DNA of 48,502 nucleotides, from sequence record NC_001416.1. The stretch is one strand, 5' to 3'. The notes under the pieces were generated by a model, which saw only the letters and a program-made list of their open reading frames with translations, did not search any database and was not told where the DNA came from. Both the position numbers and the translations under genes were made by a program. The DNA is from Escherichia phage Lambda. This document shows, one piece after another, positions 8,955 through 37,943 of this stretch. Position 1 is the stretch's first letter. Every line of letters starts with the position of its first letter.

Positions 8955-9695
8955 ATGCCTGTACCAAATCCTACAATGCCGGTGAAAGGTGCCGGGACCA
9001 CCCTGTGGGTTTATAAGGGGAGCGGTGACCCTTACGCGAATCCGCTTTCAGACGTTGACTGGTCGCGTCTGGCAAAAGTTAAAGACCTGACGCCCGGCGA
9101 ACTGACCGCTGAGTCCTATGACGACAGCTATCTCGATGATGAAGATGCAGACTGGACTGCGACCGGGCAGGGGCAGAAATCTGCCGGAGATACCAGCTTC
9201 ACGCTGGCGTGGATGCCCGGAGAGCAGGGGCAGCAGGCGCTGCTGGCGTGGTTTAATGAAGGCGATACCCGTGCCTATAAAATCCGCTTCCCGAACGGCA
9301 CGGTCGATGTGTTCCGTGGCTGGGTCAGCAGTATCGGTAAGGCGGTGACGGCGAAGGAAGTGATCACCCGCACGGTGAAAGTCACCAATGTGGGACGTCC
9401 GTCGATGGCAGAAGATCGCAGCACGGTAACAGCGGCAACCGGCATGACCGTGACGCCTGCCAGCACCTCGGTGGTGAAAGGGCAGAGCACCACGCTGACC
9501 GTGGCCTTCCAGCCGGAGGGCGTAACCGACAAGAGCTTTCGTGCGGTGTCTGCGGATAAAACAAAAGCCACCGTGTCGGTCAGTGGTATGACCATCACCG
9601 TGAACGGCGTTGCTGCAGGCAAGGTCAACATTCCGGTTGTATCCGGTAATGGTGAGTTTGCTGCGGTTGCAGAAATTACCGTCACCGCCAGTTAA
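8955..9695 (+). CDS. V: Major tail tube protein gpV
   Basis: ORF track 8925..9695; recognised start [10 protein letters not shown] at 8955. Confidence 0.93.
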
Positions 9696-9710: not shown

Positions 9711-10133
9711 ATGTTCCTGAAAACCGAATCATTTGAACATAACGGTGTGACCGTCACGCTTTCTGAACTGTCAGCCCTGCAGCGCATTGAGCATCTCGCC
9801 CTGATGAAACGGCAGGCAGAACAGGCGGAGTCAGACAGCAACCGGAAGTTTACTGTGGAAGACGCCATCAGAACCGGCGCGTTTCTGGTGGCGATGTCCC
9901 TGTGGCATAACCATCCGCAGAAGACGCAGATGCCGTCCATGAATGAAGCCGTTAAACAGATTGAGCAGGAAGTGCTTACCACCTGGCCCACGGAGGCAAT
10001 TTCTCATGCTGAAAACGTGGTGTACCGGCTGTCTGGTATGTATGAGTTTGTGGTGAATAATGCCCCTGAACAGACAGAGGACGCCGGGCCCGCAGAGCCT
10101 GTTTCTGCGGGAAAGTGTTCGACGGTGAGCTGA
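9711..10133 (+). CDS. G: Tail assembly chaperone gpG
   Basis: ORF track 9711..10133 (140 aa). Confidence 0.93.
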   Translation: MFLKTESFEHNGVTVTLSELSALQRIEHLALMKRQAEQAESDSNRKFTVEDAIRTGAFLVAMSLWHNHPQKTQMPSMNEAVKQIEQEVLTTWPTEAISHAENVVYRLSGMYEFVVNNAPEQTEDAGPAEPVSAGKCSTVS

Positions 10134-10549
10134 GTTTTGCCCTGAAACTGGCGCGTGAGATGGGGCGACCCGACTGGCGTGCCATGCTTGCCGGGATGTC
10201 ATCCACGGAGTATGCCGACTGGCACCGCTTTTACAGTACCCATTATTTTCATGATGTTCTGCTGGATATGCACTTTTCCGGGCTGACGTACACCGTGCTC
10301 AGCCTGTTTTTCAGCGATCCGGATATGCATCCGCTGGATTTCAGTCTGCTGAACCGGCGCGAGGCTGACGAAGAGCCTGAAGATGATGTGCTGATGCAGA
10401 AAGCGGCAGGGCTTGCCGGAGGTGTCCGCTTTGGCCCGGACGGGAATGAAGTTATCCCCGCTTCCCCGGATGTGGCGGACATGACGGAGGATGACGTAAT
10501 GCTGATGACAGTATCAGAAGGGATCGCAGGAGGAGTCCGGTATGGCTGA
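9711..10549 (+). CDS. T: Tail assembly chaperone gpG-T fusion made by programmed -1 frameshift at slippery GGGAAAG (10109-10115); T part is 10115..10549
   Basis: G frame codons GCG GGA AAG read at 10107-10115; -1 frame ORF 10115..10549 (ORF track 10115..10549) continues to H start. Confidence 0.88.
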
Positions 10550-13103
10550 ACCGGTAGGCGATCTGGTCGTTGATTTGAGTCTGGATGCGGCCAGATTTGA
10601 CGAGCAGATGGCCAGAGTCAGGCGTCATTTTTCTGGTACGGAAAGTGATGCGAAAAAAACAGCGGCAGTCGTTGAACAGTCGCTGAGCCGACAGGCGCTG
10701 GCTGCACAGAAAGCGGGGATTTCCGTCGGGCAGTATAAAGCCGCCATGCGTATGCTGCCTGCACAGTTCACCGACGTGGCCACGCAGCTTGCAGGCGGGC
10801 AAAGTCCGTGGCTGATCCTGCTGCAACAGGGGGGGCAGGTGAAGGACTCCTTCGGCGGGATGATCCCCATGTTCAGGGGGCTTGCCGGTGCGATCACCCT
10901 GCCGATGGTGGGGGCCACCTCGCTGGCGGTGGCGACCGGTGCGCTGGCGTATGCCTGGTATCAGGGCAACTCAACCCTGTCCGATTTCAACAAAACGCTG
11001 GTCCTTTCCGGCAATCAGGCGGGACTGACGGCAGATCGTATGCTGGTCCTGTCCAGAGCCGGGCAGGCGGCAGGGCTGACGTTTAACCAGACCAGCGAGT
11101 CACTCAGCGCACTGGTTAAGGCGGGGGTAAGCGGTGAGGCTCAGATTGCGTCCATCAGCCAGAGTGTGGCGCGTTTCTCCTCTGCATCCGGCGTGGAGGT
11201 GGACAAGGTCGCTGAAGCCTTCGGGAAGCTGACCACAGACCCGACGTCGGGGCTGACGGCGATGGCTCGCCAGTTCCATAACGTGTCGGCGGAGCAGATT
11301 GCGTATGTTGCTCAGTTGCAGCGTTCCGGCGATGAAGCCGGGGCATTGCAGGCGGCGAACGAGGCCGCAACGAAAGGGTTTGATGACCAGACCCGCCGCC
11401 TGAAAGAGAACATGGGCACGCTGGAGACCTGGGCAGACAGGACTGCGCGGGCATTCAAATCCATGTGGGATGCGGTGCTGGATATTGGTCGTCCTGATAC
11501 CGCGCAGGAGATGCTGATTAAGGCAGAGGCTGCGTATAAGAAAGCAGACGACATCTGGAATCTGCGCAAGGATGATTATTTTGTTAACGATGAAGCGCGG
11601 GCGCGTTACTGGGATGATCGTGAAAAGGCCCGTCTTGCGCTTGAAGCCGCCCGAAAGAAGGCTGAGCAGCAGACTCAACAGGACAAAAATGCGCAGCAGC
11701 AGAGCGATACCGAAGCGTCACGGCTGAAATATACCGAAGAGGCGCAGAAGGCTTACGAACGGCTGCAGACGCCGCTGGAGAAATATACCGCCCGTCAGGA
11801 AGAACTGAACAAGGCACTGAAAGACGGGAAAATCCTGCAGGCGGATTACAACACGCTGATGGCGGCGGCGAAAAAGGATTATGAAGCGACGCTGAAAAAG
11901 CCGAAACAGTCCAGCGTGAAGGTGTCTGCGGGCGATCGTCAGGAAGACAGTGCTCATGCTGCCCTGCTGACGCTTCAGGCAGAACTCCGGACGCTGGAGA
12001 AGCATGCCGGAGCAAATGAGAAAATCAGCCAGCAGCGCCGGGATTTGTGGAAGGCGGAGAGTCAGTTCGCGGTACTGGAGGAGGCGGCGCAACGTCGCCA
12101 GCTGTCTGCACAGGAGAAATCCCTGCTGGCGCATAAAGATGAGACGCTGGAGTACAAACGCCAGCTGGCTGCACTTGGCGACAAGGTTACGTATCAGGAG
12201 CGCCTGAACGCGCTGGCGCAGCAGGCGGATAAATTCGCACAGCAGCAACGGGCAAAACGGGCCGCCATTGATGCGAAAAGCCGGGGGCTGACTGACCGGC
12301 AGGCAGAACGGGAAGCCACGGAACAGCGCCTGAAGGAACAGTATGGCGATAATCCGCTGGCGCTGAATAACGTCATGTCAGAGCAGAAAAAGACCTGGGC
12401 GGCTGAAGACCAGCTTCGCGGGAACTGGATGGCAGGCCTGAAGTCCGGCTGGAGTGAGTGGGAAGAGAGCGCCACGGACAGTATGTCGCAGGTAAAAAGT
12501 GCAGCCACGCAGACCTTTGATGGTATTGCACAGAATATGGCGGCGATGCTGACCGGCAGTGAGCAGAACTGGCGCAGCTTCACCCGTTCCGTGCTGTCCA
12601 TGATGACAGAAATTCTGCTTAAGCAGGCAATGGTGGGGATTGTCGGGAGTATCGGCAGCGCCATTGGCGGGGCTGTTGGTGGCGGCGCATCCGCGTCAGG
12701 CGGTACAGCCATTCAGGCCGCTGCGGCGAAATTCCATTTTGCAACCGGAGGATTTACGGGAACCGGCGGCAAATATGAGCCAGCGGGGATTGTTCACCGT
12801 GGTGAGTTTGTCTTCACGAAGGAGGCAACCAGCCGGATTGGCGTGGGGAATCTTTACCGGCTGATGCGCGGCTATGCCACCGGCGGTTATGTCGGTACAC
12901 CGGGCAGCATGGCAGACAGCCGGTCGCAGGCGTCCGGGACGTTTGAGCAGAATAACCATGTGGTGATTAACAACGACGGCACGAACGGGCAGATAGGTCC
13001 GGCTGCTCTGAAGGCGGTGTATGACATGGCCCGCAAGGGTGCCCGTGATGAAATTCAGACACAGATGCGTGATGGTGGCCTGTTCTCCGGAGGTGGACGA
13101 TGA
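10542..13103 (+). CDS. H: Tail tape measure protein gpH
   Basis: ORF track 10542..13103 (853 aa). Confidence 0.95.
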   Translation: MAEPVGDLVVDLSLDAARFDEQMARVRRHFSGTESDAKKTAAVVEQSLSRQALAAQKAGISVGQYKAAMRMLPAQFTDVATQLAGGQSPWLILLQQGGQVKDSFGGMIPMFRGLAGAITLPMVGATSLAVATGALAYAWYQGNSTLSDFNKTLVLSGNQAGLTADRMLVLSRAGQAAGLTFNQTSESLSALVKAGVSGEAQIASISQSVARFSSASGVEVDKVAEAFGKLTTDPTSGLTAMARQFHNVSAEQIAYVAQLQRSGDEAGALQAANEAATKGFDDQTRRLKENMGTLETWADRTARAFKSMWDAVLDIGRPDTAQEMLIKAEAAYKKADDIWNLRKDDYFVNDEARARYWDDREKARLALEAARKKAEQQTQQDKNAQQQSDTEASRLKYTEEAQKAYERLQTPLEKYTARQEELNKALKDGKILQADYNTLMAAAKKDYEATLKKPKQSSVKVSAGDRQEDSAHAALLTLQAELRTLEKHAGANEKISQQRRDLWKAESQFAVLEEAAQRRQLSAQEKSLLAHKDETLEYKRQLAALGDKVTYQERLNALAQQADKFAQQQRAKRAAIDAKSRGLTDRQAEREATEQRLKEQYGDNPLALNNVMSEQKKTWAAEDQLRGNWMAGLKSGWSEWEESATDSMSQVKSAATQTFDGIAQNMAAMLTGSEQNWRSFTRSVLSMMTEILLKQAMVGIVGSIGSAIGGAVGGGASASGGTAIQAAAAKFHFATGGFTGTGGKYEPAGIVHRGEFVFTKEATSRIGVGNLYRLMRGYATGGYVGTPGSMADSRSQASGTFEQNNHVVINNDGTNGQIGPAALKAVYDMARKGARDEIQTQMRDGGLFSGGGR

Positions 13104-33330: not shown

Positions 33331-33463
33331 TCTTTGGGACTCCTGGCTGATTAAGTATGTCGATAAGGCGTTTCCATCCGTCACGTAATTTACGGGTGAT
33401 TCGTTCAAGTAAAGATTCGGAAGGGCAGCCAGCAACAGGCCACCCTGCAATGGCATATTGCAT
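33299..33463 (-). CDS. cIII: CIII, FtsH inhibitor stabilising CII
   Basis: ORF track 33299..33535; recognised 54-aa product MQYAIAGWP starting at 33463. Confidence 0.9.
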   Translation of the reverse strand: MQYAIAGWPVAGCPSESLLERITRKLRDGWKRLIDILNQPGVPKNGSNTYGYPD

Positions 33464-36274: not shown

Positions 36275-37114
36275 TTAATCCTTAACTTTGCCCACCTGCC
36301 TTTTAAAACATTCCAGTATATCACTTTTCATTCTTGCGTAGCAATATGCCATCTCTTCAGCTATCTCAGCATTGGTGACCTTGTTCAGAGGCGCTGAGAG
36401 ATGGCCTTTTTCTGATAGATAATGTTCTGTTAAAATATCTCCGGCCTCATCTTTTGCCCGCAGGCTAATGTCTGAAAATTGAGGTGACGGGTTAAAAATA
36501 ATATCCTTGGCAACCTTTTTTATATCCCTTTTAAATTTTGGCTTAATGACTATATCCAATGAGTCAAAAAGCTCCCCTTCAATATCTGTTGCCCCTAAGA
36601 CCTTTAATATATCGCCAAATACAGGTAGCTTGGCTTCTACCTTCACCGTTGTTCGGCCGATGAAATGCATATGCATAACATCGTCTTTGGTGGTTCCCCT
36701 CATCAGTGGCTCTATCTGAACGCGCTCTCCACTGCTTAATGACATTCCTTTCCCGATTAAAAAATCTGTCAGATCGGATGTGGTCGGCCCGAAAACAGTT
36801 CTGGCAAAACCAATGGTGTCGCCTTCAACAAACAAAAAAGATGGGAATCCCAATGATTCGTCATCTGCGAGGCTGTTCTTAATATCTTCAACTGAAGCTT
36901 TAGAGCGATTTATCTTCTGAACCAGACTCTTGTCATTTGTTTTGGTAAAGAGAAAAGTTTTTCCATCGATTTTATGAATATACAAATAATTGGAGCCAAC
37001 CTGCAGGTGATGATTATCAGCCAGCAGAGAATTAAGGAAAACAGACAGGTTTATTGAGCGCTTATCTTTCCCTTTATTTTTGCTGCGGTAAGTCGCATAA
37101 AAACCATTCTTCAT
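36275..37114 (-). CDS. rexA: RexA (sensor component of Rex exclusion)
   Basis: ORF track 36275..37114 (279 aa). Confidence 0.95.
   Translation of the reverse strand: MKNGFYATYRSKNKGKDKRSINLSVFLNSLLADNHHLQVGSNYLYIHKIDGKTFLFTKTNDKSLVQKINRSKASVEDIKNSLADDESLGFPSFLFVEGDTIGFARTVFGPTTSDLTDFLIGKGMSLSSGERVQIEPLMRGTTKDDVMHMHFIGRTTVKVEAKLPVFGDILKVLGATDIEGELFDSLDIVIKPKFKRDIKKVAKDIIFNPSPQFSDISLRAKDEAGDILTEHYLSEKGHLSAPLNKVTNAEIAEEMAYCYARMKSDILECFKRQVGKVKD

Positions 37115-37226: not shown

Positions 37227-37943
<717 letters not shown>

What the first reader, a model, noticed from the sequence alone, without database searches (positions are those of the whole stretch)
10109..10115. Programmed -1 ribosomal frameshift site joining G and T
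Seen in sequence: slippery heptamer G GGA AAG in the G frame, 6 codons before the G stop (10131-10133); the -1 frame stays open to 10549 and overlaps the H start. Established knowledge: this yields the G-T fusion needed at low ratio for tail assembly.
Basis: partly seen in the sequence, partly recalled or inferred. Interest (0 to 1): 0.4.

Follow-up and report, generated by a model that had tools for sequence, protein, structure and literature searches.

The report
Lambda G-T tail-chaperone frameshift site
This is the textbook programmed -1 ribosomal frameshift of phage lambda, where a few percent of ribosomes slip at G GGA AAG near the end of gene G to make the G-T fusion protein needed for tail assembly; it is real, correctly located and already well known.

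Summary
The window is phage lambda (100% identity to Lambda records). GGGAAAG lies at 10109-10115 in phase G_GGA_AAG of gene G (9711-10133), and AAG is six codons before the TGA at 10131-10133. The -1 frame is open from 10070 to the TGA at 10547-10549, which overlaps the ATG of H (10542).

The heptamer alone is not rare (11 copies, about 6 expected). Its context is unique: of 57 in-phase X_XXY_YYZ sites in 60 genes, only this one opens a long extension (144 codons). G is Pfam Phage_TAC_2 and T is Phage_tail_T, and they lie between the tail tube gene V and the tape measure gene H.

All 70 distinct intact homologous loci examined (G identity down to 28%) keep a -1 T frame across the G stop and a Lys A_AAG (rarely A_AAA) at the same codon. 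The preceding codon varies. T often has no start codon for up to 24 conserved codons, which excludes independent initiation.

Reviews and an experimental paper name this site (Levin 1993; Xu 2004, 2013, 2014; about 4% shifting, about 30:1 ratio). Verdict: supported, already known.

Side result: a candidate 8-bp helix 7 nt downstream is kept, with one covarying pair, only in the lambda/N15/phi80 subfamily. It is suggestive and unproven.

The parts
9711..10133 (+). Gene G, the zero-frame product gpG (140 aa, 15.6 kDa), a tail assembly chaperone
   Evidence: ORF. Pfam PF06894 Phage_TAC_2, E = 9e-62, full length. PHROG 42. Annotated as G in Lambda records.
10109..10115 (+). Slippery heptamer G_GGA_AAG. 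The tRNA-Gly on GGA and tRNA-Lys on AAG re-pair with GGG and AAA after a -1 slip, and both frames encode Gly-Lys.
   Evidence: Sequence and phase. Named as the lambda G/GT shift site in PMC3296357 Table 1, PMC7618472 and PMC5009743. The A_AAG part is kept at the homologous codon in all but three of the loci compared, and those three carry A_AAA.
10070..10130 (+). The 61-nt window in which the G frame and the -1 (T) frame are both open. Any productive shift must occur here.
   Evidence: T-frame upstream stop at 10067-10069 and G stop at 10131-10133; no other slip-compatible codon in the window.
10115..10549 (+). T reading frame (-1 relative to G), translated only as the C-terminal 144 residues of gpGT. 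The TGA at 10547-10549 overlaps the H start.
   Evidence: Pfam PF06223 Phage_tail_T, E = 2e-14. PHROG 39, plus PHROG 32165, which spans G and T as one 290-position family. No usable Shine-Dalgarno sequence, and the start codon is not conserved.
9711..10549 (+). Coding path of the fusion gpGT: 9711..10115 joined to 10115..10546, then the stop. 279 aa, 31.2 kDa, junction ...PVSAGK|VFDGELSF...
   Evidence: Constructed and translated. No relative has a solved structure by sequence search.
10123..10130 (+). 5' arm (CGGUGAGC) of a candidate downstream helix, 7 nt after the heptamer. Unproven as a stimulator.
   Evidence: Present in the lambda minimum-free-energy fold (z = -1.55 only). Recovered independently by RNAalifold on 23 subfamily loci that were not used to derive it. 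The pair 10124:10192 is G:C or A:U without exception in 32 sequences. Absent in the other subfamilies.
10186..10193 (+). 3' arm (GCUUGCCG) of the same candidate helix
   Evidence: Synonymous positions are held in the pairing-compatible state.
10542..13103 (+). Gene H, the tape measure protein and binding partner of gpG and the G part of gpGT. Its ATG overlaps the end of T.
   Evidence: Pfam TMP_2 and Tape_meas_lam_C. Strong Shine-Dalgarno sequence at 10526-10534, -10.3 kcal/mol.
8955..9695 (+). Gene V, the major tail tube protein and, per the literature, the partner of the T domain
   Evidence: Pfam Phage_TTP_12 and Big_2. Annotation. The T-V interaction is stated in PMC5009743.

Best explanation
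This is the programmed -1 ribosomal frameshift site of the phage lambda tail genes G and T.

Most ribosomes translating G read GGA AAG, continue for five more codons, and stop at 10131-10133, making gpG (140 aa). A small fraction, about 4% according to the literature, slip back one base while GGA and AAG are in the P and A sites. The two tRNAs re-pair with GGG and AAA. The single E. coli tRNA-Lys (mnm5s2UUU anticodon) pairs poorly with AAG and is the slippery partner. Those ribosomes then read GUG UUC GAC... in the T frame to 10546 and make gpGT (279 aa).

gpG and the G part of gpGT coat the tape measure protein gpH. The T part recruits the tube protein gpV. Neither protein remains in the finished tail. 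Encoding both from one start codon fixes their ratio at about 30:1.

Shown here: the sequence anatomy, its uniqueness in the genome, the family assignments, conservation of the slip codon and the -1 frame, and the absence of an independent start for T. Taken from the literature: the measured efficiency, the ratio, the binding partners and the dependence on tRNA modification.
For: - Identity: the window is 100% identical to Escherichia phage Lambda records.
- Anatomy: phase, stops and overlaps are as claimed.
- Uniqueness: this is 1 of 57 in-phase slippery heptamers, and the only one with a long -1 extension. It is the only re-pairing-compatible site in the 61-nt overlap window.
- Families and gene order: V (tube), G (PF06894), T (PF06223), H (tape measure). 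PHROG 32165 models G and T as one protein.
- Conservation: 12 phage homologues with 28-82% G identity, plus 58 further distinct intact prophage loci from more than 20 genera of Enterobacterales, all keep a -1 T frame across the G stop and a Lys A_AAG or A_AAA at the same codon. A 59th locus, L142, is truncated.
- No independent start: the first possible start codon in the T frame lies 1 to 24 codons after the slip site, yet those codons are conserved as protein (K-[VA]-x-x-x-E-L-x-F-x-x-x-L-A-R-E...). Lambda's GTG at 10115 is GTC, GCA or GCC in relatives. Anti-Shine-Dalgarno pairing is -4.3 kcal/mol for the GTG and -2.8 for the ATG at 10160, against -6.6, -10.3 and -5.9 for G, H and V.
- Literature: PMC5009743 (low-level -1 shift, 30:1 ratio, roles of gpG and gpGT, G_GGA_AAG highly shift-prone in E. 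coli). PMC3296357 (zero frame kept about 96% of the time, immunoblots of gpG and gpGT, dependence on tRNA-Lys thiolation). PMC7618472. N15 and Gifsy-1 records annotate the homologous site as a frameshift.
Against: Nothing found argues against it. Four limits apply.

- The heptamer alone is not statistically unusual (11 observed, 6.1 expected).
- The exact heptamer is kept in only a minority of relatives.
- No significant stimulatory element was found: the lambda downstream fold has z = -1.55, there is no Rfam match, and there is no upstream Shine-Dalgarno-like sequence.
- No protein-level data can be produced with these tools. The primary papers (Levin 1993; Xu 2004, 2013, 2014) could not be read directly and are cited through reviews.
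Confidence: 0.97

Rival explanations
1. T is an ordinary separate gene, initiated independently at GTG 10115 or ATG 10160 as several GenBank records annotate it, and the heptamer is incidental.
For: HK630 and Lambda h434 imm21 annotate a CDS from the GTG, the latter with a 'ribosome_binding_site' at 10108-10110. OR974322 annotates T from ATG 10160. The GTG at 10115 is the first start codon in the T frame.
Against: - Anti-Shine-Dalgarno pairing is at background level: -4.3 and -2.8 kcal/mol, against a background median of -3.0 and neighbouring genes at -5.9 to -10.3.
- The GTG is not conserved even at 69% G identity (GTC), and it is GCA or GCC in others.
- In phi80-type and many prophage loci the first start codon is 24 codons downstream, although those 24 codons are conserved as protein.
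- The T frame closes 2 to 47 codons upstream of the site in every locus, so the only way into it is from G.
- The h434 imm21 record itself notes 'frameshift product GT'.
- The literature describes gpGT, not gpT, as the product.
Confidence: 0.02
2. The G-T fusion arises from transcriptional slippage: RNA polymerase adds one A in the A run, and translation of the edited mRNA is normal.
For: One extra A in AAA would place T in frame with G and give the same protein sequence. Some relatives have longer runs: AAAAAA in Stx1 and 1720a-02, and AAAA in G_GAA_AAG loci.
Against: - The lambda run is only 3 A. To my knowledge, productive transcriptional slippage needs runs of about 6 or more.
- The window holds 76 A or T runs of 6 or more that are not used this way.
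- The conserved feature is the codon phase N_NNA_AAG, not run length.
- gpGT level responds to thiolation of tRNA-Lys U34, which is a ribosomal effect (PMC3296357).
Confidence: 0.01

Closest known systems
Phage lambda G/GT programmed -1 frameshift (Levin, Hendrix and Casjens 1993; Xu, Hendrix and Duda 2013, 2014)
   Same: It is this very site. The genome is the same, as are the heptamer G_GGA_AAG, the position six codons before the G stop, and the products gpG and gpGT.
   Different: Nothing differs. I add only a census of slip-site variants in relatives and a candidate downstream helix.
Conserved tail assembly chaperone frameshift of long-tailed dsDNA phages (Xu, Hendrix and Duda 2004, Mol Cell)
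   Same: Two overlapping ORFs lie between the major tail gene and the tape measure gene. The second is reached by a -1 shift near the end of the first, giving a low-abundance fusion. The gene order and both Pfam families were verified here, and the arrangement is conserved in 70 distinct intact loci.
   Different: Lambda is the founding example. Across the wider class, sequence similarity is low and some members shift in other ways (the review notes a likely +1 shift in HSTV-2, and a difference in P2-like phages whose description is cut off in the passage retrieved). Within the lambda G family itself the P-site codon varies (GGA, GAA, AAA, GUA, GCA).
E. coli dnaX gamma/tau -1 frameshift (A_AAA_AAG)
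   Same: A -1 slip in which the same single tRNA-Lys slips from AAG to AAA. The Stx1 and 1720a-02 relatives carry exactly A_AAA_AAG. One start codon gives two products in a fixed ratio.
   Different: From my own knowledge, dnaX shifts at about 50% and depends on an upstream Shine-Dalgarno-like element and a strong downstream hairpin. Here there is no Shine-Dalgarno-like element, at best a weak long-range helix, and about 4% efficiency. In dnaX the shifted product is the shorter one; here it is the longer one.
Tetranucleotide A_AAG slippage (IS1222 G_CGA_AAG; Bacillus cdd A_CGA_AAG)
   Same: Most relatives (G_GAA_AAG, G_GUA_AAG) lack a P-site codon that can re-pair fully, so they probably rely on the A_AAG tetramer described in PMC5009743.
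   Different: Lambda itself has the full tandem heptamer, which the same review calls highly shift-prone in E. coli.

Membership tests
Canonical -1 programmed ribosomal frameshift site (X_XXY_YYZ type) | Heptamer X_XXY_YYZ in phase with the upstream (zero) frame | tested here: met
   G_GGA_AAG, with 10109 as the third base of a G codon.
Canonical -1 programmed ribosomal frameshift site (X_XXY_YYZ type) | A -1 ORF that overlaps the end of the zero-frame ORF and is open at the slip site | tested here: met
   The T frame is open from 10070 to 10546, giving a 61-nt overlap and 144 codons after the slip.
Canonical -1 programmed ribosomal frameshift site (X_XXY_YYZ type) | Both tRNAs can re-pair in the -1 frame at the first two codon positions | tested here: met
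   GGA to GGG and AAG to AAA. These are the only two such codons in the overlap window.
Canonical -1 programmed ribosomal frameshift site (X_XXY_YYZ type) | A stimulatory element (downstream structure 5-9 nt away, or an upstream Shine-Dalgarno-like sequence) | tested here: inconclusive
   - No Shine-Dalgarno-like sequence and no Rfam match.
- Lambda downstream fold z = -1.55.
- The three-helix model fails across the whole family.
- One 8-bp helix, 7 nt downstream, is kept with one covarying pair in the lambda/N15/phi80 subfamily.
Canonical -1 programmed ribosomal frameshift site (X_XXY_YYZ type) | Trans-frame protein demonstrated | not testable with these tools
   Literature only: gpG and gpGT immunoblots in PMC3296357, and Levin 1993 as cited.
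Phage tail assembly chaperone G/GT pair (lambda type) | Located between the major tail (tube) gene and the tape measure gene | tested here: met
   V is Phage_TTP_12, H is TMP_2 plus Tape_meas_lam_C, and G and T lie between them.
Phage tail assembly chaperone G/GT pair (lambda type) | Upstream ORF belongs to the gpG chaperone family | tested here: met
   PF06894 Phage_TAC_2, 206.9 bits against a cut-off of 27, covering 125 of 126 profile positions.
Phage tail assembly chaperone G/GT pair (lambda type) | Downstream -1 ORF belongs to the T family and has no start of its own | tested here: met
   PF06223, 54.1 bits against a cut-off of 25.9. No Shine-Dalgarno sequence. The start codon is not conserved while the preceding codons are.
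Phage tail assembly chaperone G/GT pair (lambda type) | Slip site and frame relation conserved in homologous tail operons | tested here: met
   Among 13 phage loci and 58 further distinct intact prophage loci, all have a -1 T frame and A_AAG or A_AAA at the same codon. Genome-set heptamer census (all 59 distinct loci, which include 3 lambda copies and truncated L142): GGAAAAG 44, GGGAAAG 6, AGAAAAG 3, GGTAAAG 3, GGCAAAA 2, GGGAAAA 1.
Phage tail assembly chaperone G/GT pair (lambda type) | Both products required, at a high G:GT ratio, and absent from virions | not testable with these tools
   Stated in PMC5009743 and PMC3296357.
dnaX-type frameshift cassette | Internal Shine-Dalgarno-like stimulator about 10 nt upstream of the heptamer | tested here: not met
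   The best anti-Shine-Dalgarno duplex in 10080-10115 is -4.3 kcal/mol and overlaps the heptamer itself. The background median is -3.0.

The most novel reading that the evidence does not exclude
In the lambda/N15/phi80 subfamily, the low and precisely set shift rate may be tuned by a long-range helix that I did not find described in the papers I could read. In lambda it is 10123-10130 paired with 10186-10193, 7 nt after the heptamer, and it closes a 55-nt domain. Other subfamilies lack the helix and instead place the G stop codon directly after the slip codon (AAG_UAG, AAG_UAA or AAA_UAG). That would mean different lineages use interchangeable stimulators to reach the same G:GT ratio.

The evidence for the helix:
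- One pair covaries (G:C 13, A:U 19, no exceptions), with at least three apparent switches on a tree built from flanking sequence.
- Glu is GAG in 32 of 32 sequences at an arm position, against 54% GAG elsewhere in the same ORFs.
- Ala is only GCU or GCC, matched to the partner base.

The weaknesses:
- Only one pair is informative.
- The region is coding.
- Phage mosaicism may inflate the event count.
- The lambda fold is not exceptional (z = -1.55).
- I could not read Levin 1993, which I recall included deletion analysis of flanking sequence.
Probability: 0.3. Interest if true: 0.35.

Novelty: already known. Interest (0 to 1): 0.1.

Why it matters
The site is a classic of recoding biology. 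One start codon yields two proteins in a fixed ratio of about 30:1, and that ratio is essential for building a tail of the correct length. The arrangement is conserved across most long-tailed phages. Confirming it here adds no new biology.

Practical value:
- T must be annotated as a ribosomal-slippage join with G, and several public Lambda-group records do not do this.
- In relatives, the feature to look for is the in-phase N_NNA_AAG, not the strict X_XXY_YYZ heptamer, which would miss most of them.

Tried and rejected
- Heptamer rarity as evidence: rejected. GGGAAAG occurs 11 times against 6.1 expected.
- The search for related loci on viral contigs with gpG: it returned only loci 99-100% identical to lambda, which say nothing about conservation. 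I replaced it with tblastn against phage records and a T-alignment scan of bacterial genomes.
- A strict X_XXY_YYZ scan in homologues: it found the motif in only 4 of 12. This first looked like non-conservation. Anchoring on the Lys codon showed G_GAA_AAG at the same position.
- Family-wide downstream RNA structure: a three-helix consensus from the first 12 homologues passed the controls on that set. It failed on 51 independent sequences: 76.1% of cells paired against 73.6% shuffled, 7 pairs changed on both sides against 7.6 expected, and RNAalifold found only -1.44 kcal/mol. Only helix 1 survives, and only in one subfamily.
- Upstream Shine-Dalgarno-like stimulator: none.
- Rfam: no relevant match. 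The only hit is a chance snoRNA match at E = 0.57.
- Solved structures: none for gpG or gpGT by sequence.
- NC_001416 is not in the phage collection, and Xu 2013 (PMC3762263) is not held. The primary experimental papers were therefore reached only through reviews.
- I did not run structure prediction or the large protein searches, because the family assignments were already unambiguous.

Full report
**Source and observation.** The window is bacteriophage lambda in the standard orientation. The segment 9500-10800 and the first 25 kb are 100% identical to several Escherichia phage Lambda records.

The sequence at 10109-10115 is GGGAAAG. G runs from 9711 to 10133, and 10109 is the third base of a codon, so the phase is GCG GGA AAG, that is G_GGA_AAG. 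AAG is codon 135 and the TGA at 10131-10133 is codon 141.

The -1 frame has a stop at 10067-10069, is open from 10070, and ends at the TGA at 10547-10549. The ATG of H is at 10542, so T and H overlap by 8 nt.

**Is it more than chance?** The heptamer alone is not. It occurs 11 times on both strands against 6.09 +/- 2.33 in dinucleotide shuffles.

The context is what matters. I took 60 verified lambda genes and listed all 57 in-phase X_XXY_YYZ heptamers, with the outcome of a -1 slip at each.

- The G site is the only in-phase GGGAAAG.
- It is the only site of any kind whose -1 frame runs far past the zero-frame stop: 144 codons ending 416 nt beyond. The next case is 36 codons and 77 nt.
- Within the 61-nt window where the G and T frames are both open, GGA and AAG are the only codons that keep their first two bases after a -1 slip.

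**What the ORFs are.**

| Gene | Pfam family | Score |
|---|---|---|
| G | PF06894 (Phage_TAC_2, lambda tail assembly chaperone G) | E = 9e-62 |
| T frame | PF06223 (Phage_tail_T) | E = 2e-14 |
| V (upstream) | Tail tube protein | |
| H (downstream) | Tape measure protein | |

PHROG 32165 is a 290-position family that matches G over positions 1-142 and T over positions 140-285, so it models the fusion as one protein. No relative has a solved structure by sequence search. The predicted products are gpG (140 aa, 15.6 kDa) and gpGT (279 aa, 31.2 kDa), with the junction ...PVSAGK|VFDGELSF....

I fetched 12 phage homologues spanning 82% to 28% gpG identity: IdasGreatGrand, an Stx2a phage, N15, an Stx1 phage, 1720a-02, an Enterobacter phage, phi80, mEp043, cdtI, mEp460, Fels-1 and Gifsy-1. 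A scan of bacterial genomes with a T alignment then gave 59 distinct loci from more than 20 genera of Enterobacterales. Three of the 59 are copies of lambda itself and one (L142) is truncated, which leaves 55 divergent prophage loci. Together with the 12 phage homologues and the three lambda copies, that makes 70 distinct intact loci.

In every intact locus the T-like frame is -1 relative to the G-like ORF. It is closed by a stop 2 to 47 codons upstream of the site and runs for 111 to 153 codons after it. A Lys codon preceded by A sits at the same aligned position.

| Heptamer | Phage set (13, including lambda) | Genome set (59) |
|---|---|---|
| G_GGA_AAG | 3 | 6 |
| A_AAA_AAG | 2 | 0 |
| G_GAA_AAG | 8 | 44 |
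| A_GAA_AAG | 0 | 3 |
| G_GUA_AAG | 0 | 3 |
| G_GCA_AAA | 0 | 2 |
| G_GGA_AAA | 0 | 1 |

The strict heptamer is therefore not conserved, but the slip-prone A_AAG core and the frame relation are. The review PMC5009743 describes A_AAG as the minimal -1 shift site in E. coli and G_GGA_AAG as highly shift-prone. The N15 and Gifsy-1 records annotate the homologous position as a translational frameshift.

**Against an independent start for T.** Several records annotate T as a free-standing gene. HK630 and Lambda h434 imm21 start it at GTG 10115, and OR974322 starts it at ATG 10160. Three results argue against this.

- Anti-Shine-Dalgarno pairing upstream of these codons is at background level: -4.3 and -2.8 kcal/mol against a background median of -3.0. 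The values for G, H and V are -6.6, -10.3 and -5.9.
- The GTG is GTC in the 69%-identical Stx2a phage and GCA or GCC in others.
- The first possible start codon in the T frame lies up to 24 codons after the slip Lys. Yet those codons encode a conserved peptide, K-[VA]-x-x-x-E-L-x-F-x-x-x-L-A-R-E-[FM]-G-R-P-D-W-R. They must be translated, and the only way into the frame is from G.

**Against transcriptional slippage.** This is unlikely for a run of three A. It also conflicts with the reported dependence of gpGT level on tRNA-Lys U34 thiolation (PMC3296357).

**Literature.**

- PMC5009743 describes the low-level -1 shift in lambda, the 30:1 ratio crucial for tail assembly, the absence of both products from virions, gpG and the G part of gpGT binding the tape measure, and the T domain binding the major tail subunit. 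It cites Levin et al. 1993 and Xu et al. 2004, 2013 and 2014.
- PMC3296357 states that the zero frame is kept about 96% of the time. It shows gpG and gpGT by immunoblot and links tRNA-Lys hypomodification to increased shifting.
- PMC7618472 repeats the heptamer G_GGA_AAG.
- I could not read the primary papers.

**Mechanism.** The shown steps are the phase, the re-pairing potential, the frame architecture, the family membership, the conservation, and the lack of an independent start. The steps taken from the literature are the efficiency, the ratio, the binding partners and the tRNA dependence. The inferred step is that in G_GAA_AAG relatives the shift depends mainly on tRNA-Lys slipping on A_AAG, because GAA to GGA cannot re-pair fully.

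**Search for a stimulator.**

- There is no upstream Shine-Dalgarno-like element and no Rfam family.
- The lambda downstream fold (10116-10215) is unremarkable: -38.7 kcal/mol, z = -1.55.
- A three-helix consensus from the first 12 homologues looked good on that same set. It failed on 51 independent sequences.
- One helix survives in the subfamily whose T begins ...DWRxMLAGM (lambda, Stx phages, N15, phi80 and 23 new loci). In lambda it is 10123-10130 CGGUGAGC paired with 10186-10193 GCUUGCCG, 7 nt after the heptamer.
- That helix has 6 or 7 of 7 core pairs in all 32 sequences. RNAalifold recovers it independently from the 23 loci that were not used to derive it.

The support for this helix is as follows.

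- Only one of its pairs varies on both sides: G:C in 13 sequences and A:U in 19, with no exceptions.
- A tree built from G and T sequence outside the helix implies at least three coordinated switches.
- The first member of the pair is a first codon position (Gly or Ser) and the second is a synonymous Ala third position.
- Other synonymous positions in the arms are also held. Glu is GAG in 32 of 32 sequences, against 114 GAG to 96 GAA elsewhere in the same ORFs and 9 to 14 in the other subfamilies. Gly is only GGY, and Ala is only GCU or GCC.

The other subfamilies lack the helix. In the Proteus, Morganella, Providencia, Ewingella and one Kluyvera locus, the G stop codon follows the slip codon directly.

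I rate this as suggestive only. There is one informative pair, the region is coding, phage mosaicism could distort the tree, and I may simply not know of earlier deletion data.

**Verdict.** The feature is the founding example of its class and is already known. Interest is low.

Noticed in passing
window 10123-10130 and 10186-10193 (+): A candidate 8-bp helix lies 7 nt downstream of the slip site. It is kept only in the lambda/N15/phi80 subfamily, with one covarying pair (G:C or A:U, no exceptions in 32 sequences) and constrained synonymous sites. It is not supported across the whole family.
   Followed up: yes
L150, L159, L162, L164-L170, L173, around locus positions 1498-1507: In Proteus, Morganella, Providencia, Ewingella and one Kluyvera prophage, the G-homologue stop codon directly follows the slip Lys codon (AAG_UAG, AAG_UAA, AAA_UAG), and the downstream helix is absent. 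This may be an alternative stimulator.
   Followed up: partly
window 10115-10549 and its annotation in JQ086376, OM418627, OR974322, NC_001901: Public records annotate T inconsistently. Some use a free-standing CDS from GTG 10115, one of them with a nominal RBS inside the slippery heptamer. One starts it at ATG 10160. N15 uses a 5'-partial CDS plus a 'slippery sequence' feature. None of the records fetched uses a ribosomal-slippage join.
   Followed up: partly
window 33332-33338 (- strand), gene cIII: An in-phase C_CCA_AAG, a heptamer the review calls highly shift-prone in E. coli, lies 10 codons before the cIII stop. The -1 frame stays open for 36 codons and ends 77 nt past the cIII stop, inside the kil region.
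   Followed up: no
window 37926-37932 and 37863-37869 (cI), 36515-36521 (rexA), - strand: In-phase A_AAA_AAG heptamers occur in cI (one at the very start of the gene) and in rexA. Each has a short -1 ORF of 2 to 8 codons. The review cites Hayes and Bull 1999 on possible shift sites in these genes.
   Followed up: no
window 10400-10546 (+), C-terminus of T: Lambda-type T carries two copies of the motif LMxxxxG[LI]AGGVR[FY]G. N15, phi80 and cdtI-type T end after one copy. The R-Y-G codons (CGN TAT GGN) of the last copy contain the ATG of the tape measure gene, so this motif and the H start are coupled.
   Followed up: no
L097-L111, L121, L130, L153 (genome-contig hits): G/T sequence 100% identical to lambda appears on contigs, most of them short, and at about 0.7-2.7x coverage where the contig name states it, in assemblies labelled Neobacillus, Oceanobacillus, Kitasatospora, Chromatium, Shewanella, Leeuwenhoekiella, Paenibacillus, Enterococcus and others. 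Two Pseudomonas assemblies hold near-genome-length (about 48 kb) lambda contigs, one at 9.6x coverage. This is almost certainly lambda control-DNA contamination, not prophages.
   Followed up: no
window 10829-10835 (+), gene H; 20228-20234 (+), orf-401: An in-phase G_GGG_GGG in H has an 83-codon -1 ORF, and an in-phase A_AAA_AAC in orf-401 has an 89-codon -1 ORF. Both -1 ORFs lie inside the parent gene and are probably chance.
   Followed up: no
PMC3296357 main text versus its Table 1: The paper's running text prints the lambda slip site as GGGTTTG (codons GGT-TTG and GGG-TTT), while its Table 1 gives GGGAAAG. The window has GGGAAAG.
   Followed up: yes
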